A DNA stretch of 64,000 nt from Candidatus Uhrbacteria bacterium RIFCSPHIGHO2_02_FULL_46_47 (GTDB lineage: Bacteria > Patescibacteriota > Patescibacteriia > GWA2-47-26): positions 2,621 through 66,620 of the forward strand of contig MGDU01000010.1 of the NCBI GenBank assembly GCA_001790815.1, in the 5' to 3' direction. Below are positions 1 through 23,953 of the stretch, piece by piece. Positions within the stretch are counted from its first letter, which is position 1, and each line of letters begins with the position of its first letter. The translations under genes were made by a program, and so were the position numbers. The notes under the pieces were generated by a model. It was not told the origin of the DNA and ran no database searches. It worked only from the letters and a program-made list of their open reading frames with translations.

Positions 1-193
1 TGTGGAAAACCCAAAGTTTGTAATGGTAACCCGTATTGATCGTCCCAAGGATGTCCAATTTGCCGAGTCCTCGGCCGCCCCGCTTTTTGGCGAAATTGCG
101 CGATTTTTACTGCAATATTACGAGATTAAGCCAACCCGGCCGATTGTACAACACTGAGTGTGGTACAATATACGGAAGCTCAGCCTCCGTAAT

Positions 194-904
194 ATGCGCA
201 ATATCAATTTCTATAATGGAGGATTTTATCACATTTATAATCGCGGTGCATTAAAAGAACCGATTTTTTTAGAAGTGAATGACTATGTGCGATTTGTGCA
301 TGATCTGTACGAATTTAACGATGTAAATTATACTATTGATTTTCGGAAGATAACAGGAAGCTCAGCTTCCGTTGCATCCACGGAAGCTGAGCTTCCGAGC
401 ATTAAAAAGCCGCAGCGTGAGCCGGTGGTGGCGATCATATCATGGTGCTTGATGCCAAATCATTTTCATCTTTTCTTACAACAGCTGAAGGATGGTGGTA
501 TAAGTTTTTTTATGCATAAACTCGGCACCGGATACACCAACTATATTAATCGAAAATATGAAGAGCGGAGCGGACACCTTTTTCAAGGAAGATTTAAGGC
601 AAAACATATTGGGCAAGAAGGATATTTTTTACATATTTCGCGTTATATTCATCTGAATCCTGTGGATTTGATTGAGTCAGGATGGAAAGAAGATGGGATC
701 AAAGATTGGAATAAAATACAAGAATTTTTGGAAAATTACCGTTGGTCTAGTTACCAAGATTGGGTTGGGAAGAAAAATTTTCCATCTGTGTTGAATTTGA
801 ATGGAGTGGAGAAGATTTTTGAAGGTGCAGAAAAATATACAAGGTTTATGAAAGAATGGGCAACTGGAAATTATCAGCCGATAAAAAGTTTAGTTGCGGG
901 ATAA
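194..904 (+). CDS. REP-associated tyrosine transposase (RAYT, Y1 HuH transposase, IS200-like)
   Basis: Motif I FYHIYNRG, HuH motif MPNHFHLFL, catalytic-Tyr region SRYIHLNP. Start moved from 158 to the Met preceding motif I; about 17 aa (ITGSSASVASTEAELPS) between motif I and HuH are encoded by an inserted REP doublet. Confidence 0.8.
   Translation: MRNINFYNGGFYHIYNRGALKEPIFLEVNDYVRFVHDLYEFNDVNYTIDFRKITGSSASVASTEAELPSIKKPQREPVVAIISWCLMPNHFHLFLQQLKDGGISFFMHKLGTGYTNYINRKYEERSGHLFQGRFKAKHIGQEGYFLHISRYIHLNPVDLIESGWKEDGIKDWNKIQEFLENYRWSSYQDWVGKKNFPSVLNLNGVEKIFEGAEKYTRFMKEWATGNYQPIKSLVAG
356..396. repeat. REP-like palindrome doublet (family A, GGAAGCTCAGCTTCC) in-frame inside the RAYT gene
   Basis: Two 15-bp palindromes in inverted orientation separated by 11 nt; same element at 909-948 and 62243-62279. 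Confidence 0.8.
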
Positions 905-1025: not shown

Positions 1026-4000
1026 ATGAGGAAAATATCCCTATTTCTCCTATTTCTTTTAATAGGAGGCGCTGTCATATTTGGCCGTGCCTTAACGGTT
1101 TTTGCTGTTGCCGGGATTCCAAAAGTAATTAATCACCAAGGACGGCTTCTTGACAGTAGTGGCAATTTGCTTGGCGGATCCGGGACCAATTATTGTTTCC
1201 GATTTTCCATTTATGATGATGTAACCGTGGGCGCTCCGGACACCAAAGTTTGGCCAGCTGGCACGCCTTCTACCATGACCGCGCAGGTGCGCAATGGGGT
1301 GTTTAATGTAGGGATAGGGGATACGGCGGCCGGCGGCGATACACTGGATTTTAATTTTCAAGATAATGATACTGTATTTTTGAATGTGGAAGTTGCCGCG
1401 CAAATAAGTAGCTCATGCGCAGGAGTAACATTTGAAACTTTAAGTCCGCGCCAGCGCGTAGCTTCTTCCGGGTACGCGATTAATGCTGATACAGTTGACG
1501 GGCTTAATCCCGGCACTGGCGCGAACAATCTTTTGAAACTTGGTTCATCCGGCGAGATCGCGCTTGGCGGAACTACTTATTTGACTGCCGCCGGCGCGCT
1601 TTCAAACATCGCAAGTCTTACCGGTTCAGGCGCGCTGACTATTACTTCAAGCGCCTCTGGCGCGATTACTCTTGATGCCGCTTCAAATGTGGTTGCTATT
1701 GCGGCGGGCGATGAATTACAACTTGGCACGGCCGCGGCAGACCCTACTGGCGCAAACGGCCGCGTATTTTATAACACGGCAACCAATAAGTTCCGCTGTT
1801 ATGAAAATGGCGCGTGGGCTAATTGCATTGGCGCGGGCGGGAGCAGTACTTTGCAAGATGCCTATGGCAATGGAAATACCATTACCACAACTGATGCCCG
1901 CAACATTCTTTTTTCACTTGCAGATACTGCGACAGATTCGGATTTTATCATAGATCTTTTAGGCACTGGCAACATATTTGAAGTGCGCGATAGCGGCGTA
2001 GCTGTCGTGACTGTGGCCGATGGCGGCGCGACAACCTTTACCGGCGCGGTTACAGCCAATGGTAATATCAATTTTGACGATGCTGGCGCAGATACGATTT
2101 CAATCGGCGCTGCAGCAGATACCGTGACAATTACCTCTGACACCCTGTCTTTGACCGACAATAACTGGACAATTTCCACAGTGGGCGCGGCTTCTTTTGC
2201 CTCGCTTTCGGTGGGCGGCGTTTCTGATCCCTACGTGGACGAAACCGGAGACACCATGACCGGATCACTGACTTTCTCCGCAGTTGCCACTGACCTTACC
2301 ACTGGCGTGAATGAAGCCCTGACCATCTCTCCCAATGGCACTGGCGACTTGGTGGTTGACACAGACGCTGACACCACCCTGACCTTAAACGGCGGAGGAG
2401 ACGGAGTTGATTCTCTGGTGCTTACCGACGGCGATATTCTTGTTTCTGACGGCGATCTTGACCTTTCCGGCGGGGACTTCAATGTTACGCTGGATGCCGG
2501 CGATACGGCCAACATTTCCAAAACCTCAGCCAATGCCGGGGATGTGGTGGCTTTAGCCGGCACCTCAGTCAATGCCATTGACGTGCTGGATCTCTCCGCC
2601 ACCTCTATAGCTGACGCGGTAGCGGATGCCATAAACGGCTTGGTAATTAACTGGACTGAATCCACTGACGCTGACACTTTCACTGCCTTAAACATCGGCA
2701 ATACCACCACCACCAATTCCGCCACCACCGGCATTTCCCTCGGCACAGGTTACGACACCGACTTAAACGCCACGACCGACCTGACTCTGGGCATCGGCGG
2801 AACGAATGAACTCACCATCACCTCCACGGCCACATCTCCCTCCACCTCAGACGGCAATGCTCTGGGCACCACCTCCTTAATGTGGGGCGATCTGTTCCTG
2901 GCCTCGGGCGGAGTGATCAACTTTGACAATGGGGATGTTACCCTCACCCATGCCGCTAATGCGCTCACCATGGCTGGAGGAAATCTAACAGTTACTCAAC
3001 CTGTGTTTACTTCCGGTTCGCCTTTCGGCTTAACCTTCACCGGCGGGGCGCATACCACGCTTGCGGCTGGAACGCAGGCAAAAGACATATACTTCAATCT
3101 TGGACGGACAGTGCAGTTTGCAACCGGAGCGTTGGCTAATCAGGAAGTAATTACGATTGACGCTCCGACTTACGCTTTCGTGGGAGCCTCAACGCTTACA
3201 GAGGCAACAACATTAAACATCTCCGGTGCGCCTCAACAAGGCACAAACGCCACGATTACAAACGCTTACGGACTTACGATTAGCCAAACCAATTACGCTA
3301 GCGCAAATGCCGTCCAGTCATTGATTGAAATGCCCGGGATTTCCAACGGAGCCGGAGCAATAACATCCCGTATAGGATTAATCATTGCTGATGCGGGCGC
3401 TAACATATCGCTTGGCAATCAAACCGCTACGCTTACTTTACTTAAAGGGCTTAGTATCAATACGGTAACCTATGAGTCCACCACAAATACCCGAACTGTC
3501 ACAAACGCGATAGGGGCAACCATAGCCGCGCCGTCTTCAGGTACGAATGTGACAATGAACACCGTTGTTGCTCTTGTCCTTGGCGATGACAACACACAGG
3601 CTAGCCAAACAGGATTTGCGTACGCGGATTTGGTAACCGGCGGCAACACTTTGACGCTTACTGGCACAACACAGCTCACCAACGTGCCTTCAATTTCTAG
3701 TGTCAATGTTGGCGCAACTACGATAACGGACGCTTCGGCGATTACGGTAGACAGCGTGGCCAGTGTTTATATTGAGGGAGCTCCAATCGCGGCAGGGTCG
3801 GTGACGCTTACGAATGCTTATGCGTTGTGGGTGGATGCGGGGGCTATTAGATTTGATGATCAAATCCAATGGGGAGCAGGTGTTGCAGTTACAGCAGGGA
3901 ATTATTCTGTCGGGAGAAACGCTGATGGTACGAATCTATTGCAACTTAACGTGCCAACTGGCTCAACACACGAGTTTTCCGTGAACGATGTTTCCCAAGT

Positions 4001-7000
4001 CAATGTGGGATTGGGCGGATTTAGCTTCCCTACTGGTGCCGCAATAACCGCGGCTGGTTATCAAGTTCTCCGCGATGCCGATGGAACGAATCAATTGCAT
4101 TTTAATGTTCCGACTGGAGCCACCTTTGAATGGTCGGTAAATGATGTTGCGGAGATGACGCTTTCGGCAACGGCGGTGAATTTTCAGAACAATTCCTTGA
4201 CTACGACTGGCGGTGGTTCGCTTACCGGTACTTGGACTGATTTGGGAAGCGTAACAACGATAGATATTAACGGCGGCACCATTGATGGCGCGACAATCGG
4301 CGGAGCGGTTGCAGGTGCAATCACTGGTACAACTATCACCGCTAATACCAATTTTGTCCCGGACGCGGATGACGGAGCTGGACTGGGTATTTCTGGTACA
4401 GCTTTCTCAGATTTGTTCTTAGCTTCTGGCGCAGTCATCAACTTCGCGGCTGGCGATGTAACGCTCACGCACGCTTCCAACTCCCTCGCAGTAGCCGGCG
4501 GCGACCTGAATGTGGATATTATTGATGGGCAAACTATTAACCTGGACGGGGATGCCAGCCCGACTGCGGATCTGGTAACCATTGGCTCTGGGGACACTTC
4601 GGCCACCGGCGGAGTGGACGCGCTACAGCTTACTTTCGGAACCTCCAATGTTTCAGGAAATGTCATTGATATTACACCGAGTTATGCCGGCGGAGCTACG
4701 GATCTTCTTTCCTACAAAATCATTGATATTGACGCTTTTTCTCCCACCAACGGCGCTGGCACTGATGGAGTTACTGGGATTGACTTTGGCGCGCTGACTG
4801 ACCCAGGCGCCACCATCAATTCTTTTGCCATGAATTTTGGCACGGGTTGGGACACGGATATCAACGCCGTTACCTCTTTGGAAATTGGCATTGGCGGCAC
4901 CAATGAGCTGGCACTCACGGCCACGGCTCTTGCTCCCTCCACCTCGGACGGCAATGCCCTGGGCACCACCGCCTTGATGTGGTCCGACCTGTTCCTCGCT
5001 TCGGGTGGAGTGATCAACTTTGACAACGGAGATGTTACTTTGACGCATGCGGCCAATGCGTTGACCATGGCTGGAGGAAACTTGACCGTCACCCAGCCGG
5101 TGTTTACTTCAGGTTCTCCTACCGGCTTGACCTTTACTGGCGGGGCGCATACAACACTTGCGGCGGGAACACAGGCAATAGACATAAACTTCAATCTTGC
5201 CCGAACAGTTCAATTCGCCACTGGCGCGTTAGCCAACCAAAGCGCGATAAACATCAGCGCGCCGACTTATGGTTTTGTCGGGGCTTCAACACTTACTACT
5301 GCGGAGTTGCTTACGTTAAGCGGATTTCCTCAGGCCGGAACAAACGCCACAATTACAAACGAGCGGATACTCCATATTGCCTCAGGCACAGCCAATGCCG
5401 GTATCGCATACAGTTTTTTCATTGATATGCCGGGGATTGCCAACGGCTTTGGCGCAATGACGAGCTTAGAGGGCATAATGCTCTCTGCGGGAGGCAATGT
5501 TTCTTTAGGGAACCAAACTGCTACTCTTTCTAATCTGATTGGGCTTAGCATTGATACTGTAACTTACGAGTCCACGACAAATGTAAGAACAGTGACAAAT
5601 GCAGTGGGAATGGTAATCTCTGCGCCATCTTCCGGTTCAAATGTCGTGATGAACACAGTGATAGCGGGCGCCTTTGGCGGAGATACAACGCAGGTGAGCC
5701 AGACAGCATTCCAATATGTGGATATTTTAACCGGCGGCAATACCCTGACGCTTACCGGCACAACGCAATTAACAGGAGCACCTTCAATTTCCAGCATTGC
5801 TGTTGATCCAATTACCATTACCGACGCTTCGGCAGTAACGGTTGATAACGCGGCAAGCGTGTACATCACGGGCGCGCCTATTGCGGCAGGGTTAGTTACG
5901 CTTACCAATGCTTATGCGCTTTGGGTTGATGCTGGGGCTATTAGATTTGATGACCATGTTCAATGGGGAGCAGGCGTTGCGGTTACAGCAGGAAATTATT
6001 CTGTCGGAAGAAATGCGGATGGTACGAATCTATTGCAGTATAACGTCCCGACTGGCTCAACGCATGAGTTTTCCGTGAATGATGTTTCCCAAGTCAATGC
6101 GGGATTGGGCGGATTTAGTTTCCCTACTGGTGCCGCAGTTACGGCGGCTGGTTATCAAGTTCTCCGCGATGCAGATGGTACAAATCAACTACATTTCAAT
6201 GTGCCCACAGGAGCTACCTTTGAATGGAGTGTAAACGATGTTGCCGAGATGACGCTTTCCGCAACGGCGGTGAACTTCCAGAATAATTCCTTGACTACGA
6301 CTGGCGGCGGTTCTCTTACGGGTACTTGGTCGGATTTGGGAAGTGTAACAACGATAGATATAAATGGAGGTACGGTGGACGGAGTAACGATTGGCGGAGC
6401 AGTGGCTGGAGCGATTACGGGAACGACCATCACAGCTACTACAAGTTTTGTAAGTGCAGTAGGTTCTGCCGCCGCTCCTACTTACACTTTCACAGGCGAT
6501 ACGAATACAGGAATGTCCGCGGCTACGGCTGATACGCTTATTCTCTCCACAGCTGGTGTCGCAGGATTAACGATTGATCCGACCCAGGACTTTACCCTAA
6601 CACAAGGCGTTTCTGCGACTGGTTCTCCTACCGGCCTTACCTTTACCGGTGGGGCGCATACTACGCTCGCGGCCAGTACAGAGGCGAGAGATGTTTACTT
6701 TGACCTTTCCAGAACAGTGCAGTTTGCAACAGGTGATATTACAGTGCAACGAGCAATGGTTATTGACGCGCCGACTTACGCGGCAGTTGGAGCAAGCAAC
6801 TTCACGCATACTTATGGTGTAGTCATTGACGGTGCGCCCAATCCGGGTACGAATGTTACATTTACCGGAATTTCCTCGGCTTTGAATATCGGGAATATGG
6901 ATAACGGGAACAATTATAGTCAAACAGAAGTTATTCATGGAATCGCCATGATTCCGGGTATTGCCAATGGTACGGGTGCCGTGGCAGAGCGCGGAGCATT

Positions 7001-10000
7001 TACCACTGCTCCGCCTGATTCAGGAATCCACCTTGGCAATCAAACCGCGACTTTGGATCTTCTTTATGGAATGGGTGCATTTGGCGGCCCGGTTGATTCA
7101 ACTACCAATACCCGCACGGTTACAAATGCCGCCACGCTTTATATTGATGGGCCGTTCAGCAATGCCGGAAATGTCACTTTCACCAACGGGCCTTATTCGC
7201 TTTGGGTGGATGCGGGGGCTATTAGATTTGATGATCAAATCCAATGGGGAGCAGGAGTTGCAGTTACAGCAGGGAATTATTCTGTTGGGAGAAACGCAGA
7301 TGGTACTAACTTAATGCAATTTAATGTACCTACTGGAGCGGCTTTTGAGTTCTCAATCAACGATGTTGCTCAAATTACTGGTGGTCTAGGGGCATGGAAT
7401 TATGCGGCTGGAGCTAGTTTTGCTGGAGGAGCCGCAAATTACATCATCGGAAGAAATGCTGACGGAACAAACCTCATGCAGTATAACGTCCCAACAGGAG
7501 CTTCGCATGAGTTTTCAATCAATGATGTTGCGCAAATAGCTATAGGTGGAGGTCAATTTTCCTTCATCACGGGTACGGCGACCGCTGGGGCTAGTTATTC
7601 TGTTGGACGAAATGCCGATGGTACGAATTTAATGCAGTACAATGTTCCGACTGGAGCTTCGCATGAGTTCTCTGTGAATGATGTTACCGAAATGACCCTC
7701 TCCGCAACAGCGGTGAATTTTCAGGATAATTCAATCACTACGACTGGCGGCGGTTCGCTTACGGGCACTTGGACTGACTTGGGTTCAGTTACCACGGTAG
7801 ACATCAACGGCGGAACGATTGATGGTGTAACTATTGGCGGAGCAGTTGCAGGGGCAATCACTGGTACAACTATCACAGTTAATACTAATCTTGTGCCAGA
7901 CGCGAATGACGGTGCAGGTCTTGGTATTTCTGGCACAGCATTTAGTGACTTGTTCTTAGCTTCTGGGGGAGTCATTAACTGGGCGGCAGGGGATGTAACA
8001 CTTACTCATGCCACAGATGCGCTCACCATGGCTGGAGGAAACTTGACCGTTACCCAGCCTGTGTTCACTTCCGGCTCACCCACCGGTCTTACCTTCACGG
8101 GCGGGGCGCATACCACGCTAACGGCTGGCAATCTTATTGATGTCAACTTCAACCTTGCTCGCACTGTTCAATTCACAACAGGTGCCGCGTTTGATTATTA
8201 CGGGGTTCAGATTTCGGCTCCGACTCTTGGAGCCACCGCCGCCACACAGACCATCTCAGGAACTACAATGTTTATCGGTGGCGGTCCAATAGCTGGAACG
8301 AATGTAACATTGAGTGGAAGCACCGCGCTAGAAGTGGACGGCTGGTTTTCCAATTCAGATATCGCGGATACCGTGTTTATTGATTATCCAGAGATCGCTA
8401 CTGGATTTGGCGCGGCGACAGAACGAGCCGCCTTAAGGATCGGAGGTGATACCTTCATTCTTGGTAATCAGACCGCCACTTTGACCGATCTGGCGGCCAT
8501 TAGCATTGGTCAAGCTACTTTCACATCCACCGACCTTGTCCGAACTGTTACCAATCCAAGCGCAATTTACATCGAGGGCGCGCCAGTGGCGAGTACGAAT
8601 GTTACTTTCACCAACGGGCCTTATTCCCTTTTTGTGGATGCCGGCGCCGCGCGGTTTGACGGCGCGGTGGCTTTGGGCGCCCAGCAATCGCTTACGGTGA
8701 ACTCAACCACCCCATCTGTTTCAGCTGGTTCCCACTTTGTTACGGCCAATTCTGCTGGAACGGTTATTAGCAATTTCACCAGCGGCCACAATGGGCAGAT
8801 CCTTGTCGTGGAAATCAACGACGCCAATACTGATTTTGACTGCACCGCTTCAAACCTTAATTGCGGTGGCGCGGACATCACCACTCCCGCGGCCGGAGAT
8901 CTTTTCACCTTCGCGTACGACGGCACGAACTGGAACCTCATCAACTGGATGGATACCTCCGCGACCCAAACCGGCGCGGATATTGCGGAATATATGTATG
9001 CGGATGCGGAGATTGCGCCAGGAACTGTGGTAGTGGCGCACCCAACGCGCAAAGAAGCTGTTATGGCGGGCGCGAAAGCTTATGACGCGACAGTGGTGGG
9101 CATTATTTCAGACGTTGAAGGTAAGTTGAGCGATATTCGACCGGGTCTCGTGCTTGGTGAAGGTCGCGGTAATGTGCCGGTCACTCTTGCCGGACGCGTG
9201 ATGGCGGCGTTTGATTTACAAAATGGTCTAGCATTTCCGGGCGATCCGCTTACCACCAGTACTAACGGCCGGCTGATGGTGGCTAAAAAAGCCGGCCCGA
9301 TTGTGGGCAAGGCCTTGAGTTTGGCCGAAAACGGATATGTGGTCGCTATGGTGAGCGTGGGTTGGTACAATCCCACGGATCTTTCACAAGTAAGCCAGGA
9401 GATGGAGGATTTGCGCGAACAAGTAAGAATCGCGCAAGCGGAAACTGCTCCAATAGAATTTACGCTGGAAGCCATGCAAAAGTTGGATGTTCGGGTTGCT
9501 AATCTTGAAACTTTGATTGCCGAACCGATAGAAGAGTTGTCAATACTTTCCAATCGCGTGGGAACCCTTGCGGATGCTTATGCGGAGGCGATAATATGGC
9601 GCGCAAGTGTTGAGACACAACTTATCGCGTTTACTGGTCGAACTGATACGCTGGAGGCGCGGGTAAATGCGATTGATCCTGTGCTTGAGGATTTGAAAAA
9701 TCGTTTGAGCGCGGTTGAGAATCCGTCACTGAGTGATGGTTCGGAAAATCACTCAGTGACAACGTTGGATTTGAGTAAGCTGGAATTGTCAGGCAGTTTG
9801 ACATTGCAAAGTGGGGCAACGATTTCCGGTGGTTTGCGCGTGGATAGCGTGAGCGCAATAGGGGATCTGCTGGCACTGATGAGTGATGTGAACTTTATTG
9901 GCCGGCCGTACTTTAACGCGGATACCGGAGGATTCGCACTTGTGAAAAAAGGTGAACGTGAGGTGCGAGTGGCGTTTACGCAAGAGTATTTGGAACAGCC

Positions 10001-10649
10001 GGTGGTAAACGCGACAATTTCACTTGAAGCCCTTGATGAATCAGCGCTTACGGAAGATCAGCGCGCTTTGCTTGATGAAGCGCAGAAAAAAGATTTGCTT
10101 GCCCAGATGCAGAGCGAACAAGAAGAGGCGCTTTTTACAAGTGGGGTGCGCTACTTGGTAACGCGCAAGAGTACCAAAGGATTTACGATTCTTTTGAGCG
10201 CGGCCGCTCCATCAGATGTGCGATTTAGCTGGATCGCGCTGGCAGTGAAGAACGCACGAACGCACACGAAAGTTGAAGATACACTAACGGACACGAACAC
10301 AAGTAGCGCGGCACTTGATGTGCCGCTGGAGGCACCCTCACCCCCGCAGTCATCCGACGCGGCTACGAACCCTCTCCCTGCGGGAGAGGGAGTAGTTTCT
10401 CCTCCGGATGATGCGGCGGTTCTTGAACCTGCCACAGAGCCCACGCCGGAAGGGCTAAGTCCTGTCGCAGGGCTTAGCCCTGAAACCAGCAACGCCCCAG
10501 AACCTGCACCTGAGCCAGTCGGGTCATCCGACCCGACTGCCCCGTCGGATGACGGGGCAGAACCCGCACCGGAAACCGCACCAGAGGCCACGCCAACCTC
10601 TGATATTTCATCCACAGATAGCATAGTTGCCACAGAGGAAACGCCATGA
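1026..10649 (+). CDS. giant (3207 aa) secreted/surface repeat protein, fibre/adhesin-like
   Basis: N-terminal signal/TM ([14 protein letters not shown]). Thr/Gly/Ala/Asn-rich beta-repeat modules are reiterated ([44 protein letters not shown] x3-4; [36 protein letters not shown] x3+). A C-terminal globular segment ([23 protein letters not shown]...WYNP) is followed by a coiled coil and a Pro/Ala/Glu-rich tail. The strand is uninterrupted for 9.6 kb. Confidence 0.85.
2791..8130 (+). repeat. intragenic long tandem/mosaic repeats (about 2.1-kb period) within the giant gene
   Basis: 2791-4886 vs 4887-6980 align with roughly 80-85% DNA identity, by eye. A third partial copy with extra [23 protein letters not shown] sub-repeats lies at about 7190-8130. 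Confidence 0.75.
9723..9760. repeat. palindromic insertion element, family D (TCACTGAGTGAT..ATCACTCAGTGA), in-frame in the giant gene
   Basis: 14-bp perfect inverted repeat with 11-nt spacer; encodes [14 protein letters not shown] near-identical copy sits at 13290-13328. Confidence 0.75.
10335..10391. repeat. GC-rich palindromic insertion element, family C, in-frame in the giant-gene tail
   Basis: CCCTCACCCCC...CCCTCTCCCTGCGGGAGAGGGAG; encodes [20 protein letters not shown]. Confidence 0.6.
10452..10483. repeat. palindromic insertion element, family B (GGGCTTAGCCC pair), in-frame in the giant-gene tail
   Basis: agggctaagtcct..cagggcttagccctg; encodes [10 protein letters not shown]. Confidence 0.7.
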
Positions 10650-10687: not shown

Positions 10688-10969
10688 ATGAGTAATACGA
10701 TTGAAGTTACCACAAATGACATAATGGAGTTTTTGAAGGATAACATGGTGACGAAGGAGGATTTACGGGATGAAATTAAGAAGGTAAAAGATGAGATTCT
10801 TTCGCAACTGGCGGTAATGCAAAAAGAACTGGAAGACATTAAAGCGCGCCTTGATGATATTGAAGAAAGATTGAAAGATGACACGGATGCGCTCGCGCGC
10901 GATGTATTGCAATTGAGAGAGCGTGTGGTTGTGCTTGAAAAACAGCTTGGCATTCAAGTATTAATGTAA
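10688..10969 (+). CDS. small coiled-coil protein, hypothetical
   Basis: 93-aa ORF with heptad-like charged repeats (KEDLRDEIKKVKDEILSQLAVMQKELEDIKARLDDIEERLKD). Confidence 0.4.
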   Translation: MSNTIEVTTNDIMEFLKDNMVTKEDLRDEIKKVKDEILSQLAVMQKELEDIKARLDDIEERLKDDTDALARDVLQLRERVVVLEKQLGIQVLM

Positions 10970-11153: not shown

Positions 11154-11549
11154 ATGGGAAATGCAAAACGTTTTGTTCCCCTAATTCTTTTTTTGCTACT
11201 TGTGGCCTCTGTCGCAGGAAATGCAATGCTGTATAAAAAGCTCAGAGTCCTTAAGCAAAATCCGCAAATGCTTGCACAAGAAGAAAATAAAGCCCTAGTT
11301 GCTAAAGTAGGCCAATTAATTGTTTTGCCTGAAGGCGAGGAGCCAACTGTTGCAACGGTAAATGAGCCGGAAAAACTCAAAGATCAGCCATTTTTCGCAA
11401 ATGCAAAACAAGGCGACAAGGTCTTGATTTACACTAAAGCGAAAAAAGCAATTTTGTATCGCACGGCGGAAAATAAGATTGTTGAAGTCGCGCCGGTAAA
11501 TATTGGTGAACAGCCAGCCGTAAGCGCGCCAGAGGCGCCTAAGGAATAG
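11154..11549 (+). CDS. small membrane-anchored protein, hypothetical
   Basis: 131 aa with N-terminal TM (FVPLILFLLLVASVAG); bracketed by inverted family-E elements. Confidence 0.5.
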   Translation: MGNAKRFVPLILFLLLVASVAGNAMLYKKLRVLKQNPQMLAQEENKALVAKVGQLIVLPEGEEPTVATVNEPEKLKDQPFFANAKQGDKVLIYTKAKKAILYRTAENKIVEVAPVNIGEQPAVSAPEAPKE

Positions 11550-11718: not shown

Positions 11719-13026
11719 ATGAAATTACAATGTTCGCGTTCGTTCGTCCTTCTGTTCGTGTTCTTTAGTGTGTTTGCGCCTTTGGCGCAAGCAACGGATT
11801 TTACCAGCACGAATTTTATTTTGCGTGACCCAGTTGTGACAATTGAAGGAGGGTATTCAAGCTCAACAAATTTCCAATTTTTCAGCAGCACTGGTCAGAC
11901 CGCGATCGGAGAGACTACCAGCACAAGCTTTACCCAGCGCTCCGGATTTTTATATTTTCCAACAGCAACAACGCCGGCCATTGCCGCAACAGCCGGAAAT
12001 GGTGAAGTGAGTTTGAGCTGGAGCGCGGCGACTGGCTCGCTTGGTAATGTGACAAATTATCGCGTTGGCACCGCAACAGTTTCCGGCGGACCGTATACTT
12101 ATGAGTCAGTTGGAAATGTTTTGACTTTTACCAAAACAGGACTTACTAATGGCACAACATATTATTTTGTCGTGCAAGCGCAGGCCGCAACTGAAACCGT
12201 GGCAACTTCCGCGCAGGTCTCAGCCACGCCTGCCGCGCCCGCGCCGTCCGGTGGAGGCGGAAGCGCTGTTATTGCAACATCTGCTCCCTCTGGCGCAAGT
12301 GTAATGCTTTCCGGGTGGGCCTATCCATTAAGCAATGTCGTGGTACTCAAAGACGCGCAAGTGGCAATGCGCACCATTGCCGGTCCGGACGCGAAGTTTA
12401 CTGTTGCGGTCTCCGGGCTTTCCGCGGGAACCTATACATTTTCCGCGTACGCGGAAGATAATATAGGGCGGCGTTCACAATTGTTTAATTTCAGTATTTT
12501 TGCAACACAAAATGCCAGTACGCAAATTGGCGGGATATTTATCGCGCCCAGCATTGCAACCGACAAGGTACATGTCCGCGCGGGCGATGATATTGCCATT
12601 TTTGGGCAAAGCGTTCCCAATGGAGAAATCACTATCGCGGTTAATTCGCCGGAAGAGATTTTTGTAAAAACCGCTTCGGATGGAAATGGCGCGTACTTGT
12701 ACAACTTTGATACTGCGCAACTTACGACAGGGGAACATTTTACCAAATCAAAAGCGCGCCTTAACGGCGAAGTAAGCCCGTTTGGGGTCGCGGTGAGGTT
12801 TGGCGTTGGCAAGGAGAATATTTCTTCAGTTGCCGCGCCATGTCCCAAAACGGCCGATCTTAATAACGATTGCAAGGTGAACTTGATTGATTTTTCAATC
12901 GCGGCGTATTGGTATAAACGCGAGCTCAGTACTGCGTTTGCGGAACTGGAAAAAACGCGCTTGAATGGTGATGGGAAAATTGATTTGGTGGATTTTTCTA
13001 TCATGGCGTTTTATTGGACGGGATGA
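11719..13026 (+). CDS. secreted protein with fibronectin type III-like domain and C-terminal dockerin-like double Ca-binding repeat
   Basis: Signal peptide MKLQCSRSFVLLFVFFSVFAPLAQA. Fn3-like GEVSLSWSAATGS..NGTTYYFVVQAQA. C-terminal DLNNDCKVNLIDFSIAAYW / LNGDGKIDLVDFSIMAFYW matches the type I dockerin duplicated-segment pattern. Start chosen at the Met before the signal peptide (ORF track 11659). Confidence 0.6.
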   Translation: MKLQCSRSFVLLFVFFSVFAPLAQATDFTSTNFILRDPVVTIEGGYSSSTNFQFFSSTGQTAIGETTSTSFTQRSGFLYFPTATTPAIAATAGNGEVSLSWSAATGSLGNVTNYRVGTATVSGGPYTYESVGNVLTFTKTGLTNGTTYYFVVQAQAATETVATSAQVSATPAAPAPSGGGGSAVIATSAPSGASVMLSGWAYPLSNVVVLKDAQVAMRTIAGPDAKFTVAVSGLSAGTYTFSAYAEDNIGRRSQLFNFSIFATQNASTQIGGIFIAPSIATDKVHVRAGDDIAIFGQSVPNGEITIAVNSPEEIFVKTASDGNGAYLYNFDTAQLTTGEHFTKSKARLNGEVSPFGVAVRFGVGKENISSVAAPCPKTADLNNDCKVNLIDFSIAAYWYKRELSTAFAELEKTRLNGDGKIDLVDFSIMAFYWTG

Positions 13027-13028
13027 TT

Positions 13029-13056
13029 GAATGTAAAATGAAAAATGTAAAATTAA
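13029..13056 (+). promoter_or_regulatory. family G element: tandem TGTAAAAT extended -10-like boxes overlapping an MKNVKL start codon
   Basis: gaaTGTAAAATgaaaaaTGTAAAATta; copies at 15334, 20651, 39928, 55365. Confidence 0.45.
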
Positions 13057-13940
13057 AAATTATTGTTGTCCTAATGGTGCTCGCGCCTAATTTTGCGTAC
13101 GGAGCGGAGTTTTATTTTGGCACACAATCAAAAGAAATCGGCGTGGGGCAATTGGGAGAGGTCGGAGTGTTTTTAAATACTGATGATGCGCAGATTAACG
13201 CGATTGAAGGAAAAATTATATTTTCCGATAGTGTGACGGTGAAAGAAATTCGCGAAGGCGGTTCAATGATTAGTTTGTGGGTTGAGAATCCGTCACTGAG
13301 TGATGATGACCCTAATCACTCAGTGACGATCATGTTTAGCGGGATTATCCCCGGCGGCTACACCGGTAATCGCGGATATTTGTTCTCGATAATATTTGAA
13401 AAAACTAAAGTCGGCGATGTGAAAATTGAAGTGAATGATGCGCGCGCATTGCTTAATGACGGGCAGGGGACATCGACTGAAGTACGCGTATCGCCACTCA
13501 CGCTTGCGGTCGTAGAAAAAACTGGGGCGCCGGGATATTTGCCGCCTTATGATAATGAGCCGCCGGAATCATTTGTGCCGGAGATTGCGCAAGATCCGAA
13601 TTTATTTGATGGAAAATGGTTTGTTACATTTGCCACGCAGGATAAAATTTCTGGAATTGATCGTTATGAAATCGCATTTGGTTCACTTGGCAATTTCGTT
13701 CGTGTTGAAAGTCCGTTTGTCTTGCCACTCTGGAAACAGCTGGCTGGTGGAATTGTTAGGATTAAAGCCATTGATCGCGCTTCAAACGTTCGCATTGAAA
13801 CTTTACCAATCGCCATACCTTTGCCCTGGTATGAAGATTATCGGATTTGGGGTATAATCCTAGGAGGAGCTATTATTGTATACCTCATATTTCGTCTATG
13901 GAAGCAAAAACAAATAAAACACACAAAAAAACACGAATAG
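13038..13940 (+). CDS. membrane-anchored protein with cohesin-like domain
   Basis: Signal MKNVKLKIIVVLMVLAPNFAYG. Domain GVGQLGEVGVFLNTDDAQINAIEGKIIFSDSVTVKEI...VKIEVNDARALLNDG fits the cohesin beta-sandwich pattern; C-terminal TM (IWGIILGGAIIVYLIF). Contains the in-frame family D palindrome (PSLSDDDPNHSVT). Confidence 0.5.
   Translation: MKNVKLKIIVVLMVLAPNFAYGAEFYFGTQSKEIGVGQLGEVGVFLNTDDAQINAIEGKIIFSDSVTVKEIREGGSMISLWVENPSLSDDDPNHSVTIMFSGIIPGGYTGNRGYLFSIIFEKTKVGDVKIEVNDARALLNDGQGTSTEVRVSPLTLAVVEKTGAPGYLPPYDNEPPESFVPEIAQDPNLFDGKWFVTFATQDKISGIDRYEIAFGSLGNFVRVESPFVLPLWKQLAGGIVRIKAIDRASNVRIETLPIAIPLPWYEDYRIWGIILGGAIIVYLIFRLWKQKQIKHTKKHE
13290..13328. repeat. palindromic insertion element, family D, in-frame in the cohesin-like gene
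   Basis: ccgtcactgagtgat-gatgaccctaa-atcactcagtgacg. Confidence 0.75.
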
Positions 13941-15331
13941 CAACACGAAAGTACACGAAACTTTTAGTGTTTTTTAGTTTATTACTCGTGCCTTTTAGTG
14001 TAGTAAAAGCGGCGCCGGCAAGTTTGTTTTTATCTCCGGCTTCCGGAACATACGGATTGAACCGTACGTTTTCGGTTGATATTGTAGTGGCAACTCCGGG
14101 TGAATCCATGAACGCAGTCCAAGGTACAGCGCGGTTTGACGCGGATCGCTTGGAAGTAGTTTCCTTAAATAAGGACGGATCAATTTTAAGTCTTTGGATT
14201 CAGGAGCCCAGGTTTTCTAATCGTGAGGGGACTGTAACATTTGAAGGGATACGGTTAAATCCCGGTTATCAAGGTACGGCGGGGAAATTGCTTACGGTCG
14301 TATTTAAAACCAGAGCGCTGGGAACCGCGAAACTGAATTTTTCATCCGCGTCAGTTTTGGCAAATGACGGCAAGGCAACCAATATCATTACGGCGCTGGG
14401 AACCGCGGCGTATCAAATCGTAGTGCCGGAGCTTGCGCCGGAGGAAATTGACGCGACAGAAGGCGTTTTGCGCGAAACTAATATTATTTCTCCCACCCAT
14501 AGTAATCCGGAAAAATGGTACGCGCTTCGGGCGGTTCAATTTGAATGGACGTTGCCTTCTTCGATTGATGGCGCATCCTTTGTCGTCAATCAAGAGCCGG
14601 ATACTACTGTGCGAGAAAAATCGTTCGGACGATTATCAAGTTATACCTACGAGGTTGCCGAGGACGGCCTATGGTATTTTCACCTGCGCCTGCGCAATCC
14701 CAAGGGATGGGGACTGACCAGCCATTTCAAATTCCAGGTTGATACCGTTGCGCCCGAGCCATTTACTATCTCGTTTATTGATGGCAGAGAAACTGATCTG
14801 CCCCAGCCGCGGATTTTTTTCTTTGCCAATGATGCAGTTTCGGGAATTGAATATTATGAGGTAAAGGTAGATGAGGGCAGTTTTTTCAGAGTCGCCCCTG
14901 AGGAGCTTATGAGCGCGCCAGTATCTCTTCCCTCGCTTTCTCCCGGCATACATACAGCGTTTGTGTATGCCTATGATCGCGCTGGCAATGTTAGGAGTTC
15001 GGCTGAAGAATTTTCCGTTGTGGCGCCAAAAGCAACGCGTTCGGTTTTGCGCATTGGAAAAGTACAGGTGCCTTATTTTGCGGTTGTCGCAATCTTGATT
15101 GGATTTGCCCTTGCGCTTATTTTCATTTTGTTGCTAGCCTGGTGGCAATTCTTACGTTTTCGCAAAAAACTCAAAAAAGAAGCGCATGAGGTGGAAGAGG
15201 TTCTGCATAAATCTCTTGATCGGATACGCGAGGATGCCGGTAGAAGGTCTGGTAAGATTAAAAAAGACGCTGATGACGCGGAAAAGGCGGTGCGGAAAGA
15301 GATTGAGGATATTGAAAAGGAGGTGAAGTGA
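13898..15331 (+). CDS. membrane-anchored protein with cohesin-like domain (paralog of 13038 gene) and charged C-terminal tail
   Basis: Signal-anchor KLLVFFSLLLVPFSVVKA. Domain FSVDIVVATPGESMNAVQGTARFDADRLEVVSLNKDG..GKLLTVVFKTRALGTAKLNF; C-terminal TM (VVAILIGFALALIFILLLAWW) then a Lys/Glu-rich tail. Start uncertain (ORF track 13847; overlaps the upstream gene). Confidence 0.5.
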   Translation: MEAKTNKTHKKTRIATRKYTKLLVFFSLLLVPFSVVKAAPASLFLSPASGTYGLNRTFSVDIVVATPGESMNAVQGTARFDADRLEVVSLNKDGSILSLWIQEPRFSNREGTVTFEGIRLNPGYQGTAGKLLTVVFKTRALGTAKLNFSSASVLANDGKATNIITALGTAAYQIVVPELAPEEIDATEGVLRETNIISPTHSNPEKWYALRAVQFEWTLPSSIDGASFVVNQEPDTTVREKSFGRLSSYTYEVAEDGLWYFHLRLRNPKGWGLTSHFKFQVDTVAPEPFTISFIDGRETDLPQPRIFFFANDAVSGIEYYEVKVDEGSFFRVAPEELMSAPVSLPSLSPGIHTAFVYAYDRAGNVRSSAEEFSVVAPKATRSVLRIGKVQVPYFAVVAILIGFALALIFILLLAWWQFLRFRKKLKKEAHEVEEVLHKSLDRIREDAGRRSGKIKKDADDAEKAVRKEIEDIEKEVK

Positions 15332-19636: not shown

Positions 19637-19642
19637 TATGTG

Positions 19643-19651
19643 TGCTATAAT
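19643..19651 (+). promoter_or_regulatory. extended -10 promoter (TGcTATAAT)
   Basis: 21 nt upstream of the ATG at 19673. Confidence 0.45.
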
Positions 19652-19672
19652 GGAGTGATATATAGTATAGTT

Positions 19673-20644
19673 ATGTTGTCCAGAAAACAACTCTCCATTT
19701 CGATTATTTCCTCCTTACTGATTAGTGTGGGCGGGGCATTTGTGCTGGGAGGAGTGCAGGCGCAAGTAACCTGTACAACCGATGCGAATTGCGTGAGTCT
19801 TGGCCCGGAATTTCGCTGTGTGTCCAGTCGCTGTAATCTTCCGCCGCCGATTTGGAATGTGGATGGAACAGGACTGGCAAGTGGCGGTCAAAACGCGCAG
19901 ATTTTTTTAACCGGTAGCGCCGCCACGAATTCAGCGCGATTTGGAAATTTGCAAATTGGTTTTGGAAATCAAATTAACAATCTTGCAACAAGCGGTACTG
20001 CGCGCGAAGTTGCTGTACAATATCAAAGTGGCAATCAGGGGTTTACAGTGTATAATGGAGGTACAGAGCCACGTCTGCGTGTGGATAGCGCTGGCAATGT
20101 AAGCATTGCGCAAGGGCTGAATGTAGGAGGCGCGACTGGCGCAGGCGCAGGGGAAATTCTTGCATCAGGCAATATCCAAAGTACAGCCGGTATGATTCGC
20201 GGAAATTTTGTGGCTAGTGATGGGACAGTTTGCGCAAGCGGACAAATTCTTCAGCGCAGTGGCGCCGCCTGGGTGTGCGCAGCGCTTGCCGGGCCATGCA
20301 ATGGCGCGGTGTATGAGCAACCTTCGGCGCTTTCAAGGGACGGCAATCGCGGAGGATATTTGAGCGCCCGTATTGAATGTCCTCCTGCAATGCATATCTG
20401 CACAACATCGGAGATTCTTGAAAGCATACAATGCGGCGCGTTTTCTGGAAATGATACCAACGGAGGAGCGCCGATGTGGATTAACAATCTTGCGCCATCT
20501 CTTCCAACGCCGACCAATGACTGTGGAGGTTGGACAACAAATGCAAGCGCCTCTGTAGGAGTGGTGTATACTTATAATGCGGCCGGAGGAGTGGCCGGCA
20601 CTGCCGGATGCAATAGTGTACTTAAATTCGCCTGTTGTCAATGA
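19673..20644 (+). CDS. secreted Cys-rich fibre-like protein, paralog 1 (conserved C-terminal ..SEILESIQCG..NDCGGW..FACCQ domain)
   Basis: Signal peptide, then a Cys-rich N-terminus and Gly/Ala/Asn repeats. The C-terminal about 110 aa are shared with the 20667 and 22271 proteins (HxCTTSEILESIxCG, NDCxGW, ACCQ end). Start at the Met after the promoter (ORF track GTG 19640). Confidence 0.6.
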   Translation: MLSRKQLSISIISSLLISVGGAFVLGGVQAQVTCTTDANCVSLGPEFRCVSSRCNLPPPIWNVDGTGLASGGQNAQIFLTGSAATNSARFGNLQIGFGNQINNLATSGTAREVAVQYQSGNQGFTVYNGGTEPRLRVDSAGNVSIAQGLNVGGATGAGAGEILASGNIQSTAGMIRGNFVASDGTVCASGQILQRSGAAWVCAALAGPCNGAVYEQPSALSRDGNRGGYLSARIECPPAMHICTTSEILESIQCGAFSGNDTNGGAPMWINNLAPSLPTPTNDCGGWTTNASASVGVVYTYNAAGGVAGTAGCNSVLKFACCQ

Positions 20645-20650
20645 TATGAC

Positions 20651-20687
20651 AAATGTAAAATTCAAAATGCAAAATGTAAAATTATTG
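20651..20687 (+). promoter_or_regulatory. family G element (tandem TGTAAAAT boxes) at the start of paralog 2
   Basis: aaaTGTAAAATtcaaaatgcaaaaTGTAAAATtattg; gives the MQNVKLLLL start. Confidence 0.45.
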
Positions 20688-22268
20688 TTACTGTTTGGAG
20701 CATTTTTAATTTCAGCGTCTTCAGCGCAGGCTCAAGTCAGTTATTGCGCGCCGGGAACAACTGCCTGCTCGCAAGGATGTACACTTGGCGTTAATTGTAC
20801 CAGTTGCTGGAGCGCGCCGACATGTACGATTACTGGGCAAACCGCGCCCACTTGTGGATCATGTCAGTGTCCATCTGGCCAGATTGTTTGTGGAAGCGCG
20901 TGTCAGCTTCCGGCCGCAACTTCTGGCCAACCGTGCGATGCTGGGCAGGGGGCTGGATCAGGAACGTTTGATAGTTGTGGAGTATGTCAGGCAAATGCGC
21001 CGCGCTATGCTACCCGGCAATACTCATTTCCGGGCACTGCGGAAGACGGATATATTAATATCAAAGGAAATCTTCGCACTTCTTCTGATATGTATCTTAC
21101 TTCTGGCAAAGCAATTCGGGTTGACGGAAGCGGTGCAACACCTACTATATTGAATATCGGAAATTTTACCGGCACAGGCGGGGTAAATGTGACTATCCTT
21201 GGCACACTTGCCCTTGATGCGCTTACCGCTGATCGCGTAACTGGAGATGAGCTTTGCATTGGCGTGGATTGCCGCACCAGTTGGCCTGTGGCAGAGGGAG
21301 GGGGACTAACTGGAAGCGGCACTGCCAACCAAGTGGCATTTTTCACCAGCGCATCAAACCTTGATTCTGATGCTAATCTTTTTTGGGATAACATAAATAA
21401 GCGGCTTGGCATTGGCACTGCCACTACCCCAGGCAGTACGCTTACGGTTCGACGCTCTGCCGCCGGAGTCGCGTTTGCGGTGCGCAATACCGGTGATAAC
21501 GCTAACACATTCGCGATTACTGACACCGGATTACTTACTGTGGGCGTTGTGCCGTGGGCGCAGTTACGCGACATTCCTTCCGCATGCGCATCTGGCAAGT
21601 TTGTTATAGATATTGAAAGCGGTACTTGCGCTTTGCCAAGCTCCGCGGCTGAATCCGACCCAGTTTACCTGGCATGGTATAATAGCGCTAACCCCGGTAT
21701 CTCCAATTTAAAAGTTGTCGGTGGCGGAGCTTTTGGCGGGTATACGCCGGATGCAACATGGAAGATAACCACGCCAAACATTTACATTGGTGATCCGGCA
21801 GTAGGTGGTACAATCATCGGCGCAGGTTCTGGCCAAAGCGCCGGAGATATTACCACGGATGGAAATCTTGTAGTAAAAGGTTGTTTTGGGGCAATTTATC
21901 GCGGGGGAACATTGAGTACATATCAAGGAAATGTAAGTTATACAGATCCGGTATTGGGAACTTTGAACGGCTATAAAGCCGTGAATGAAATTTGCAAAGA
22001 TTCTGCGGGTATATTAAGTGGAAGCCATGTCTGCAGTGTGCAAGAAATTTTGGAAAGCATCAAATGCGGCGCAGCACTTCCGGGAACTGGCATTGTATGG
22101 GTGCAAGATGGCCCTCCTGGATTTACGGCGAACGTAAACGATTGTATTGGATGGACTTCCGCGGCTGGCGACTCTTATGGACGATACTGGGCGTTTGACG
22201 CAAATGGCGGCCAAGCATGGGTGCAACCTTGCAATGGTTTAGCCCGCGCGTTTGCTTGTTGCAAATAA
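20667..22268 (+). CDS. secreted Cys-rich fibre-like protein, paralog 2
   Basis: Signal MQNVKLLLLFGAFLISASSAQA and Cys-rich module (CAPGTTACSQGCTLGVNCTSCW..). Fibre-like repeats (IKGNLRTSSDMYLTSGKAIRVDGSG; IGTATTPGSTLTV) and conserved C-terminal domain ending FACCK. Confidence 0.65.
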   Translation: MQNVKLLLLFGAFLISASSAQAQVSYCAPGTTACSQGCTLGVNCTSCWSAPTCTITGQTAPTCGSCQCPSGQIVCGSACQLPAATSGQPCDAGQGAGSGTFDSCGVCQANAPRYATRQYSFPGTAEDGYINIKGNLRTSSDMYLTSGKAIRVDGSGATPTILNIGNFTGTGGVNVTILGTLALDALTADRVTGDELCIGVDCRTSWPVAEGGGLTGSGTANQVAFFTSASNLDSDANLFWDNINKRLGIGTATTPGSTLTVRRSAAGVAFAVRNTGDNANTFAITDTGLLTVGVVPWAQLRDIPSACASGKFVIDIESGTCALPSSAAESDPVYLAWYNSANPGISNLKVVGGGAFGGYTPDATWKITTPNIYIGDPAVGGTIIGAGSGQSAGDITTDGNLVVKGCFGAIYRGGTLSTYQGNVSYTDPVLGTLNGYKAVNEICKDSAGILSGSHVCSVQEILESIKCGAALPGTGIVWVQDGPPGFTANVNDCIGWTSAAGDSYGRYWAFDANGGQAWVQPCNGLARAFACCK

Positions 22269-22270
22269 AT

Positions 22271-23950: not shown

Positions 23951-23953
23951 TTT

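What the first reader, a model, noticed from the sequence alone, without database searches (positions are those of the whole stretch)
11719..15331. Dockerin-bearing Fn3 protein followed by two membrane-anchored cohesin-like proteins: a mini cellulosome-style display module
The 11719 protein ends in two 22-aa segments matching the dockerin Ca-binding loop/helix pattern (DLNNDCKVNLIDFSIAAYW; LNGDGKIDLVDFSIMAFYW). The next two genes each have a signal peptide, a beta-sandwich domain with cohesin-like sequence features and a C-terminal TM anchor; the second also has a Lys/Glu-rich cytoplasmic tail. A genetically linked cohesin-dockerin pair outside a cellulolytic context suggests programmed assembly of a surface complex, here possibly displaying an Fn3 module.
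Basis: partly seen in the sequence, partly recalled or inferred. Interest (0 to 1): 0.6.

Follow-up and report, generated by a model that had tools for sequence, protein, structure and literature searches.

The report
Conserved dockerin–cohesin surface operon in Patescibacteria
Three overlapping genes of a tiny "candidate phyla radiation" bacterium encode a secreted protein ending in a real dockerin plus two membrane-anchored proteins with real cohesin folds, and the same trio turns up in relatives from at least 577 species, so it is probably a conserved plug-and-socket anchor on the cell surface and has nothing to do with cellulose digestion.

Summary

The window is Candidatus Uhrbacteria (CPR/Patescibacteria). 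The trio is not a local oddity. At least 577 species genomes encode an A relative, and 69 of 71 loci with enough downstream DNA have two or three cohesin genes right after A. A giant secreted protein with a hypervariable centre lies upstream in 48 of 65 loci. There are no enzymes, CBMs or multi-cohesin scaffoldins, so "mini-cellulosome" is the wrong frame.

Best reading: a non-cellulosomal dockerin-cohesin joint tethers A to the membrane. It works like Ruminococcus ScaE-CttA. Binding itself is inferred, not shown. I found no description of the operon in the searchable literature. I rate it a new variant of a known kind, interest about 0.55.

The parts
11719..13026 (+). Gene A: secreted 435-aa protein (signal peptide 1-23, orphan conserved head 24-84, Fn3 85-172, Gly-rich linker, Ig 193-262, Ig 263-365, dockerin 379-435)
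   Evidence: ORF and start codon. 100% match to P0241. Pfam fn3, Big_6 and Dockerin_1. AF2 domain boundaries. More than 2114 relatives at about 50-60% identity.
11788..11970 (+). A N-terminal head (residues 24-84), three S-x-[NS]-F strand motifs; conserved but with no confident monomer fold
   Evidence: Column conservation 0.59. AF2 pLDDT <50. No Pfam, NCBIfam or PDB relative. Its HMM occurs only in A genes.
12853..13023 (+). Dockerin module of A (Ca loop 1 at 12856-12891, Ca loop 2 at 12958-12993, each followed by an F-S-I-x-A helix)
   Evidence: Loop 1 is the canonical D-x-N-x-D...N..D. Loop 2 has Arg instead of Asp at position 1.
13023..13940 (+). Gene B: type I membrane protein (signal peptide, cohesin-like domain ~13104-13523, Ig-like domain ~13554-13808, TM helix ~13839-13901, short Lys-rich tail)
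   Evidence: ORF. 100% match to P0121. hhalign to the C family, E 2.4e-42. Cohesin Pfam hits in 5 of 36 relatives. Weak profile hits to R. flavefaciens cohesins 5aoz and 5m2o. ATGA overlap with the stop codon of A.
13898..15331 (+). Gene C: type I membrane protein (signal peptide, cohesin domain ~14012-14428, Ig ~14465-14743, Big_13-like Ig ~14744-15022, TM ~15071-15154, cytoplasmic coiled-coil tail 15155-15328)
11154..11549 (+). Small N-terminally anchored 131-aa protein, a frequent upstream neighbour
   Evidence: blastp relative directly upstream of A in 51 of 74 loci with >1.5 kb upstream. No Pfam or PHROG family.
1026..10649 (+). Giant 3207-aa secreted repeat protein, a probable fibre; conserved ends and hypervariable centre; frequent upstream neighbour
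   Evidence: A giant ORF lies within 2 kb upstream on the same strand in 48 of 65 loci. Only residues ~1-190 and ~2600-3150 are conserved. The homologue in L081 carries Peptidase_S74. The window copy has no Pfam family above its cut-off.
10688..10969 (+). 93-aa coiled-coil protein between the giant gene and the small TM protein (membership in the module uncertain)
   Evidence: ORF. Only coiled-coil-type weak Pfam hits. A 119-aa gene sits in the same position in L081 and L082.

Best explanation
A-B-C is a non-cellulosomal dockerin-cohesin anchoring module of the Patescibacteria cell envelope. All three proteins are exported by Sec signal peptides. B and C stay in the cytoplasmic membrane through one C-terminal helix and hold a single cohesin domain away from the membrane on one (B) or two (C) Ig-like spacers. 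A is released, and its C-terminal Ca2+-binding dockerin plugs non-covalently into the cohesin of B and/or C. This leaves a rigid Fn3-Ig-Ig stalk that presents the conserved 60-aa N-terminal head outward. The head has no confident fold as a monomer, so it probably oligomerises or binds another component. The most likely partner is the conserved C-terminal module of the giant protein, with a hypervariable centre, that is encoded upstream. The cytoplasmic coiled-coil tail of C could couple the complex to something inside the cell.

Shown: domain identities, topology read from the sequence, paralogy of B and C, operon structure and its conservation.

Inferred: that the dockerin binds these particular cohesins, the stoichiometry, and the link to the giant protein.
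For: - Dockerin. Pfam Dockerin_1 matches 38 of 38 isolated modules, and the window module scores 27 bits against a cut-off of 22.9. The best PDB hits of the profile are dockerins. AF2 predicts three helices with pLDDT 85-92.
- Linkage. At least 577 species genomes have an A relative. 69 of 71 loci with >=3 kb downstream carry 2-3 cohesin genes right after A. The genes overlap.
- Exclusivity. The family HMMs find one dockerin and two cohesins in the window, and in the loci the dockerin occurs only in A and the cohesins only in B/C.
- Dockerin constraint. The dockerin is the most conserved part of A (0.74).
- Cohesin surface. In C, conservation is highest in predicted strands 3, 5, 6, the end of strand 8 and the 8-9 loop (L-A-N-D-G-x-G-T), and lowest in strands 1, 2 and 9. 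Strands 8-3-6-5 form the dockerin-binding face in type I cohesins (established knowledge). The motifs NA, W..P, F.GI and L.NDG.GT are shared between B and C.
- Extracellular location. Cys residues in the dockerin flank and in loop 1 covary: 47 of 48 are paired and 14 of 14 lack both, which suggests a disulfide.
- Upstream partner. A giant protein lies upstream in 48 of 65 loci, with conserved termini only.
Against:
- The window's own B and C do not reach any PF00963 score.
- Ca loop 2 lacks the canonical Asp1 in 50 of 62 family members, so the module is an atypical dockerin.
- One dockerin facing two or three cohesins has no obvious stoichiometric logic.
- Many non-cellulosomal dockerins have no known partner.
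- The link to the giant protein rests on synteny only. About a quarter of loci lack a giant ORF upstream.
Confidence: 0.6

Rival explanations
1. The domains are structural look-alikes that do not pair. The dockerin-like EF-hand pair of A is only a Ca2+-stabilised cap or binds something else (glycan, peptidoglycan, host surface). B and C are independent Ig/cohesin-fold membrane proteins, for example adhesins or envelope spacers, co-transcribed with A for another reason.
For: B and C have no direct PF00963 hit. Loop 2 is degenerate. Cohesin-like folds exist outside cohesin-dockerin systems (9ifr). The Southlakia paper speculates that glycans are the target of a dockerin-domain protein (PMC10633639).
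Against: Synteny of one dockerin gene with cohesin genes is near-universal across very divergent genomes. The dockerin is nearly invariant. The cohesin face used for dockerin binding is the conserved one. All known functions of bona fide cohesins are dockerin binding (established knowledge).
Confidence: 0.2
2. A is itself the subunit of a polymer (a fibre or an S-layer-like lattice). The N-terminal head of one A docks onto another A by strand exchange. The B/C cohesins only nucleate or terminate the polymer at the membrane, and the giant protein is unrelated.
For: The head is conserved yet has no monomer fold. All domains of A are unusually conserved for a spacer, 0.59-0.74. 17 of 65 loci have no giant ORF upstream.
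Against: No repeat or donor-strand signature was identified. The head HMM hits nothing else. There is no homology to pilins or S-layer proteins in Pfam or PDB. This rival still requires dockerin-cohesin anchoring, so it refines the main explanation rather than replacing it.
Confidence: 0.12
3. The cluster is phage-derived (a tail-fibre-like giant protein plus accessory proteins) and belongs to a prophage or tailocin-like element rather than to the cell envelope.
For: The giant homologue in L081 carries Peptidase_S74, a tail-fibre chaperone domain. An IS200-like transposase lies at 158-904.
Against: There are no A relatives in 2.9 million viral contigs. The window's giant protein, A and the two small proteins have no PHROG hits at E<=0.001, only one marginal hit on the 93-aa protein (E 0.006). 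The flanking genes are housekeeping (murF, cysS, dnaX, murJ, lepA). The trio sits next to Mur ligase genes in at least two distant genomes.
Confidence: 0.03

Closest known systems
Ruminococcus flavefaciens ScaE (cell-anchored single cohesin) with CttA (adhesin ending in an X-module-dockerin)
   Different: ScaE is attached to the wall by sortase, whereas B and C use a C-terminal TM helix. CttA carries cellulose-binding modules, whereas A carries an orphan head. The ScaE/CttA pair is part of a cellulosome gene cluster in a Firmicute. Here there are 2-3 paralogous cohesin proteins per dockerin.
Non-cellulosomal cohesin-dockerin pairs of Clostridium perfringens glycoside hydrolases (e.g. GH84C/NagJ cohesin-FN3, GH33 cohesin)
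   Different: Those modules sit on secreted enzymes and assemble toxin or enzyme complexes. They have no membrane anchor, are not a conserved three-gene operon, and come from a different phylum.
Archaeoglobus fulgidus non-cellulosomal cohesin (2xdh) and the scattered cohesin- and dockerin-like modules catalogued across bacteria and archaea
   Different: Those are sporadic occurrences. This is a syntenic operon conserved across at least 577 species with a fixed architecture.
Cellulosome anchoring scaffoldins of Acetivibrio/Clostridium (ScaC, OlpA, OlpC, SdbA)
   Different: They are anchored by SLH domains, often carry several cohesins, and their partners are scaffoldins loaded with enzymes. None of these features is present here.

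Membership tests
Dockerin (type I, Pfam PF00404) | Profile match at or above the curated cut-off | tested here: met
   The 64-aa module alone scores 27.0 bits against the 22.9 cut-off, and 38 of 38 family modules match. Full-length A scores 20.8 bits, just below the cut-off.
Dockerin (type I, Pfam PF00404) | Two duplicated ~22-residue segments, each a 12-residue EF-hand-like Ca2+ loop (D1, N/D3, D5, N/D9, D12) followed by a helix | tested here: inconclusive
   Loop 1 is fully canonical and nearly invariant. Loop 2 keeps N3, D5, D/N9 and D12 but has Arg at position 1 in the window, and Asp there in only 12 of 62 relatives. The helices are predicted with pLDDT 85-92.
Dockerin (type I, Pfam PF00404) | Ca2+-dependent binding to a cohesin | not testable with these tools
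Cohesin (Pfam PF00963) | Nine-stranded beta-sandwich (jelly-roll) cohesin fold | tested here: met
Cohesin (Pfam PF00963) | Profile match at or above the curated cut-off | tested here: not met
   The window's B and C have no PF00963 hit at E<=1. Relatives do at E<=0.01: 25 of 37 for C (best 3.8e-8) and 5 of 36 for B (best 2.7e-6). These are divergent members reached only through their families.
Cohesin (Pfam PF00963) | Binds a dockerin on the 8-3-6-5 sheet | not testable with these tools
   There is only indirect support: conservation is highest on predicted strands 3, 5, 6 and the end of strand 8.
Cellulosome | Scaffoldin with multiple cohesins | tested here: not met
   B and C, and their relatives, carry one cohesin each.
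Cellulosome | Dockerins borne by carbohydrate-active enzymes, plus a CBM | tested here: not met
   A has only Fn3, Ig and dockerin domains. Only one dockerin is found in the window, by both the family HMM and the loop pattern. No CAZyme or CBM domains were found in the genes scanned.
Cellulosome | Anchoring through SLH domains or sortase | tested here: not met
   B and C end in a hydrophobic helix followed by Lys/Arg-rich tails. Pfam reports no SLH domain, and no LPXTG motif is seen on reading the sequence.

The most novel reading that the evidence does not exclude
A-B-C is the conserved membrane-anchoring base of the Patescibacteria host-attachment organelle. A mechanically strong dockerin-cohesin joint fastens a giant fibre, with a hypervariable centre, to the cell through A's orphan head, and the cytoplasmic tail of C reports or regulates attachment. 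If so, the variable giant gene would set host range and the invariant trio would be a phylum-wide handle for studying, or blocking, episymbiosis.
Probability: 0.25. Interest if true: 0.8.

Novelty: new variant of a known kind. Interest (0 to 1): 0.55.

Why it matters
Patescibacteria (CPR) make up a large share of bacterial diversity. Most are thought to live attached to other cells, and almost nothing is known about their envelope apart from type IV pili. A three-gene dockerin-cohesin module with 50-60% identity across classes of the phylum, usually next to a giant protein with a hypervariable centre, is a concrete and testable candidate for a conserved surface-attachment device.

It also extends cohesin-dockerin biology in three ways: a membrane-helix-anchored form, one dockerin facing several cohesin paralogues, and a role as a core envelope component rather than an accessory of polysaccharide degradation. 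The only related hint I found in the literature is an essential dockerin-domain envelope protein in Southlakia epibionticum (PMC10633639). That protein has a different size and neighbourhood, and its homology to A was not tested.

Tried and rejected
- **AlphaFold of a dockerin-linker-cohesinB-linker-cohesinC chimera.** I built it with a paired alignment from 32 loci.
- **afdb50 fold search.** The library was unavailable.
- **Direct searches with B and C.** Direct Pfam and PDB sequence searches gave nothing. Family profiles and structure were needed.
- **Foldseek of the A model.** It returned only tandem Fn3 arrays and said nothing about the head or the dockerin.
- **A's head.** It has no relative in Pfam, NCBIfam or PDB, even with a family profile.
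- **Giant protein.** No Pfam family above its cut-off (one marginal DUF5484 hit, E 0.002), no PHROG match, and no significant PDB match.
- **Phage origin.** Rejected: no viral-contig relatives and housekeeping flanks.
- **murF as a module member.** Rejected as a general feature: window murF relatives were found in fewer than 3 of 80 loci, although Mur ligases do flank the trio in L081 and L082.
- **Apparent fusions of B/C homologues to PDDEXK_3 or 23S_rRNA_IVP.** These domains are N-terminal to the signal peptide, so they are probably small inserted ORFs merged by gene callers.
- **Promoter and terminator scan.** It gave nothing decisive.
- **Literature.** Six searches found no description of this operon.
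- **Mirror-tree or covariation between dockerin and cohesins.** Not attempted: the dockerin is too invariant and all three genes share one phylogeny.
Full report
**What is there.** The window comes from Candidatus Uhrbacteria bacterium RIFCSPLOWO2_01_FULL_47_24, a member of the CPR/Patescibacteria. Genes B and C are 100% identical to its proteins A3B21_02765 and A3B21_02770. The finding's coordinates delimit three co-directional genes.
- Gene A is 11719-13026 (ATG preceded by AAGGGA).
- Gene B starts at ATG 13023, which forms an ATGA overlap with A's stop codon.
- Gene C starts at ATG 13898, 43 nt inside the end of B.

No convincing terminator lies inside the trio. Tight overlap implies co-transcription and probably translational coupling.

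**Gene A.** Pfam places Fn3 above its cut-off (27.3 vs 25). It also reports a Big_6 Ig domain and Dockerin_1 at 20.8 bits, just below the 22.9 cut-off.
- Scanned alone, the last 64 residues score 27.0 bits, and all 38 family modules tested match Dockerin_1 (best E 3e-11).
- A profile of the module finds dockerins as its top PDB hits: 2y3n_B at 1.8e-7, then 2yik, 5nrm_B, 1daq, 2mte and 4fl4.
- AF2 (mean pLDDT 78.7) gives signal peptide, an unstructured stretch at 24-78 (pLDDT <50), Fn3 (88-169), a Gly-rich linker, two Ig domains (193-262 and 267-364), and three helices at 389-397, 405-414 and 423-434 with pLDDT 85-92.
- Ca loop 1 (DLNNDCKVNLID) is canonical and nearly invariant in 62 relatives.
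- Ca loop 2 (RLNGDGKIDLVD) keeps N3, D5, D9 and D12 but lacks Asp1. Only 12 of 62 relatives have Asp there.
- A Cys in the N-terminal flank covaries with a Cys at loop-1 position 4, 6 or 8. They are paired in 47 of 48 sequences and both absent in 14 of 14. This suggests a disulfide and an extracellular location.

**Genes B and C.** Neither hits PF00963 on its own, and neither has a PDB sequence relative.
- Their families are large: 816 and 222 or more clusters.
- PF00963 is found in 25 of 37 C relatives and 5 of 36 B relatives. NCBI already names a few of them "cohesin domain-containing protein".
- hhalign shows that B and C are paralogues (probability 100%, E 2.4e-42). The alignment covers the N-terminal domain and a C-terminal Ig domain with an S-G-I-D...A-G-N signature. 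C has one extra Ig domain inserted.
- The AF2 model of C (mean pLDDT 85.4; residues 58-192 above 94) has a nine-strand sandwich, two Ig domains, and one long helix at 396-466 that contains the TM segment and continues into a coiled-coil tail.
- Foldseek agrees. 2w1n (cohesin-FN3 of C. perfringens GH84C) is first, and single cohesins score TM 0.64-0.78.
- Both proteins have Sec-type signal peptides and end in a hydrophobic helix followed by Lys/Arg-rich sequence, which makes them type I membrane proteins (read).

**It is a phylum-wide operon.** A has more than 2114 relatives at E<=1e-3. The 120 best listed are 50-64% identical to it over 88-100% of its length. Those that carry a source name come from Uhrbacteria, Magasanikbacteria, Peregrinibacteria, Taylorbacteria, Paceibacterota and Minisyncoccia.
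- In the 80 best loci, HMMs of the three families give the order A-B-C, sometimes A-B-C-C' or A-C'-B-C.
- Of 71 loci with at least 3 kb downstream of A, 48 have two and 21 have three cohesin genes directly after A. Only 2 have one.
- The family dockerin HMM occurs only in A genes and the cohesin HMMs only in B/C genes. The 64-kb window holds exactly one dockerin and two cohesins.
- No relative of A exists in 2.9 million viral contigs.
- The flanks are housekeeping genes: murF, cysS, dnaX, murJ and lepA.

**Neighbours.**
- The 131-aa N-terminally anchored protein (11154-11549) is found upstream in 51 of 74 loci.
- A giant ORF (at least 1000 aa, or cut by the locus edge) ends within 2 kb upstream of A on the same strand in 48 of 65 loci.
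- The window's giant protein (3207 aa) is conserved only over its first ~190 and last ~600 residues. The centre has no detectable match to the other giant proteins.
- In a distant genome (L081) the giant homologue carries Peptidase_S74, the tail-fibre chaperone domain. The order there is giant, 119 aa, 152 aa, A, B, C, Mur ligase.
- By contrast A is conserved throughout (0.59-0.74 per domain), with the dockerin highest at 0.74.

So the trio is the invariant part of the locus, and the giant gene beside it has a hypervariable centre.

**How it most likely works.** The best-supported reading is a plug-and-socket anchor. B and C hold cohesins above the membrane, and A's dockerin inserts into one or both. 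A's stalk then presents its N-terminal head.

Support beyond synteny:
- In the C family, conservation is highest on predicted strands 3, 5, 6, the end of strand 8 and the 8-9 loop, and lowest on strands 1, 2 and 9.
- The 8-3-6-5 sheet is the dockerin platform in type I cohesins (established knowledge).
- B and C share the motifs that lie there.
- The two dockerin repeats are alike (10 of 20 identical residues, including L-[VI]-D-F-S-I-x-A). This would allow the dual binding mode known for type I dockerins, or engagement of different paralogues.
- An Ig domain directly precedes the dockerin, reminiscent of X-module-dockerin dyads.

The head (residues 24-84) is conserved but has no confident monomer fold and no known relative. 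I infer that it folds only in an oligomer or on a partner. The conserved C-terminal module of the giant protein is the obvious candidate, but the evidence is synteny only.

I put 0.6 on dockerin-cohesin anchoring and about 0.25 on the giant-fibre extension.

**Rivals.**
1. The modules do not pair (0.2).
2. A polymerises through its head (0.12). This refines the main explanation rather than contradicting it.
3. Phage origin (0.03). This is disfavoured.

**Comparison with what is known.** Functionally the closest analogue is R. flavefaciens ScaE-CttA, where a cell-fixed single cohesin captures a non-enzymatic X-dockerin protein. The closest structures are type I cohesins, including the non-cellulosomal ones of C. 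perfringens and A. fulgidus.

It is not a cellulosome. It has no multi-cohesin scaffoldin, no dockerin-bearing enzymes, no CBM, and no SLH or sortase anchor (see the membership table).

The differences that make it a new variant are:
- anchoring by a C-terminal TM helix;
- two or three paralogous single-cohesin proteins per single dockerin;
- a cytoplasmic coiled-coil tail on C;
- an atypical second Ca loop and a Cys staple in the dockerin;
- core-genome conservation across Patescibacteria.

**Literature.** Six full-text searches found no description of this operon. The nearest item is the Tn-seq study of Southlakia epibionticum. It lists an essential envelope protein with a dockerin domain (SEML1_0315) and speculates that it targets glycans (PMC10633639). 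That protein is 927 aa and has different neighbours. I could not test whether it is homologous to A.

**Verdict.** This is a real, conserved and apparently undescribed non-cellulosomal dockerin-cohesin envelope module. Its central mechanistic step, binding, still needs a prediction or an experiment that I could not run here.

Noticed in passing
window 1026-10649: Giant 3207-aa secreted protein with long internal repeats and no Pfam family above its cut-off. Only the first ~190 and last ~600 residues are conserved across related loci, and the centre is hypervariable. A giant ORF precedes the A-B-C trio in 48 of 65 loci, and one distant homologue (L081) carries Peptidase_S74.
   Followed up: partly
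window 11788-11970 (A residues 24-84): Orphan N-terminal segment with three S-x-[NS]-F motifs. It is conserved across the family but AF2 gives pLDDT <50, and it has no Pfam, NCBIfam or PDB relative. It may fold only in an oligomer or on a partner.
   Followed up: partly
window 12835-12891 (flank and Ca loop 1 of the dockerin): A Cys in the flank before the dockerin covaries with a Cys at loop position 4, 6 or 8 (47 of 48 paired; 14 of 14 lack both). This suggests a disulfide staple not typical of cellulosomal dockerins. Loop 2 lacks Asp1 in 50 of 62 relatives.
   Followed up: partly
P0132, P0151 (B relatives); P0008, P0049 (C relatives); e.g. gaps A-B in L001, L006, L034: Some homologues appear fused at the N-terminus, before the signal peptide, to PDDEXK_3 (GxxExxY) or 23S_rRNA_IVP/bAvd four-helix-bundle domains. 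These are most likely small ORFs inserted between the operon genes and merged by gene callers.
   Followed up: partly
window 31740-34286; L081 18994-20643: A TrwB/VirD4-like type IV coupling protein lies about 16 kb downstream of the trio in the window and about 5 kb downstream in a distant genome. This could be coincidence or loose linkage.
   Followed up: no
window 158-904 and 26981-27628: An IS200-like Y1 transposase lies at the left edge of the window. A 215-aa protein has a PaaX_M / Cas2-like domain.
   Followed up: no
window 19640-26182: Four consecutive genes (334, 563, 577 and 742 aa) have no Pfam family. The first has an N-terminal hydrophobic segment and many Cys residues.
   Followed up: no
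L016 and L032 (both from MAG CAYZGX01): Two separate A-B-C loci occur in one metagenome-assembled genome. This is either a duplicated module or a mixed bin.
   Followed up: no
window 10688-10969 and 15155-15328: A 93-aa cytoplasmic coiled-coil protein is encoded between the giant gene and the small TM protein, and the cytoplasmic tail of C is also a Lys/Glu-rich coiled coil. The two might pair. A 119-aa gene occupies the same slot in L081 and L082.
   Followed up: no
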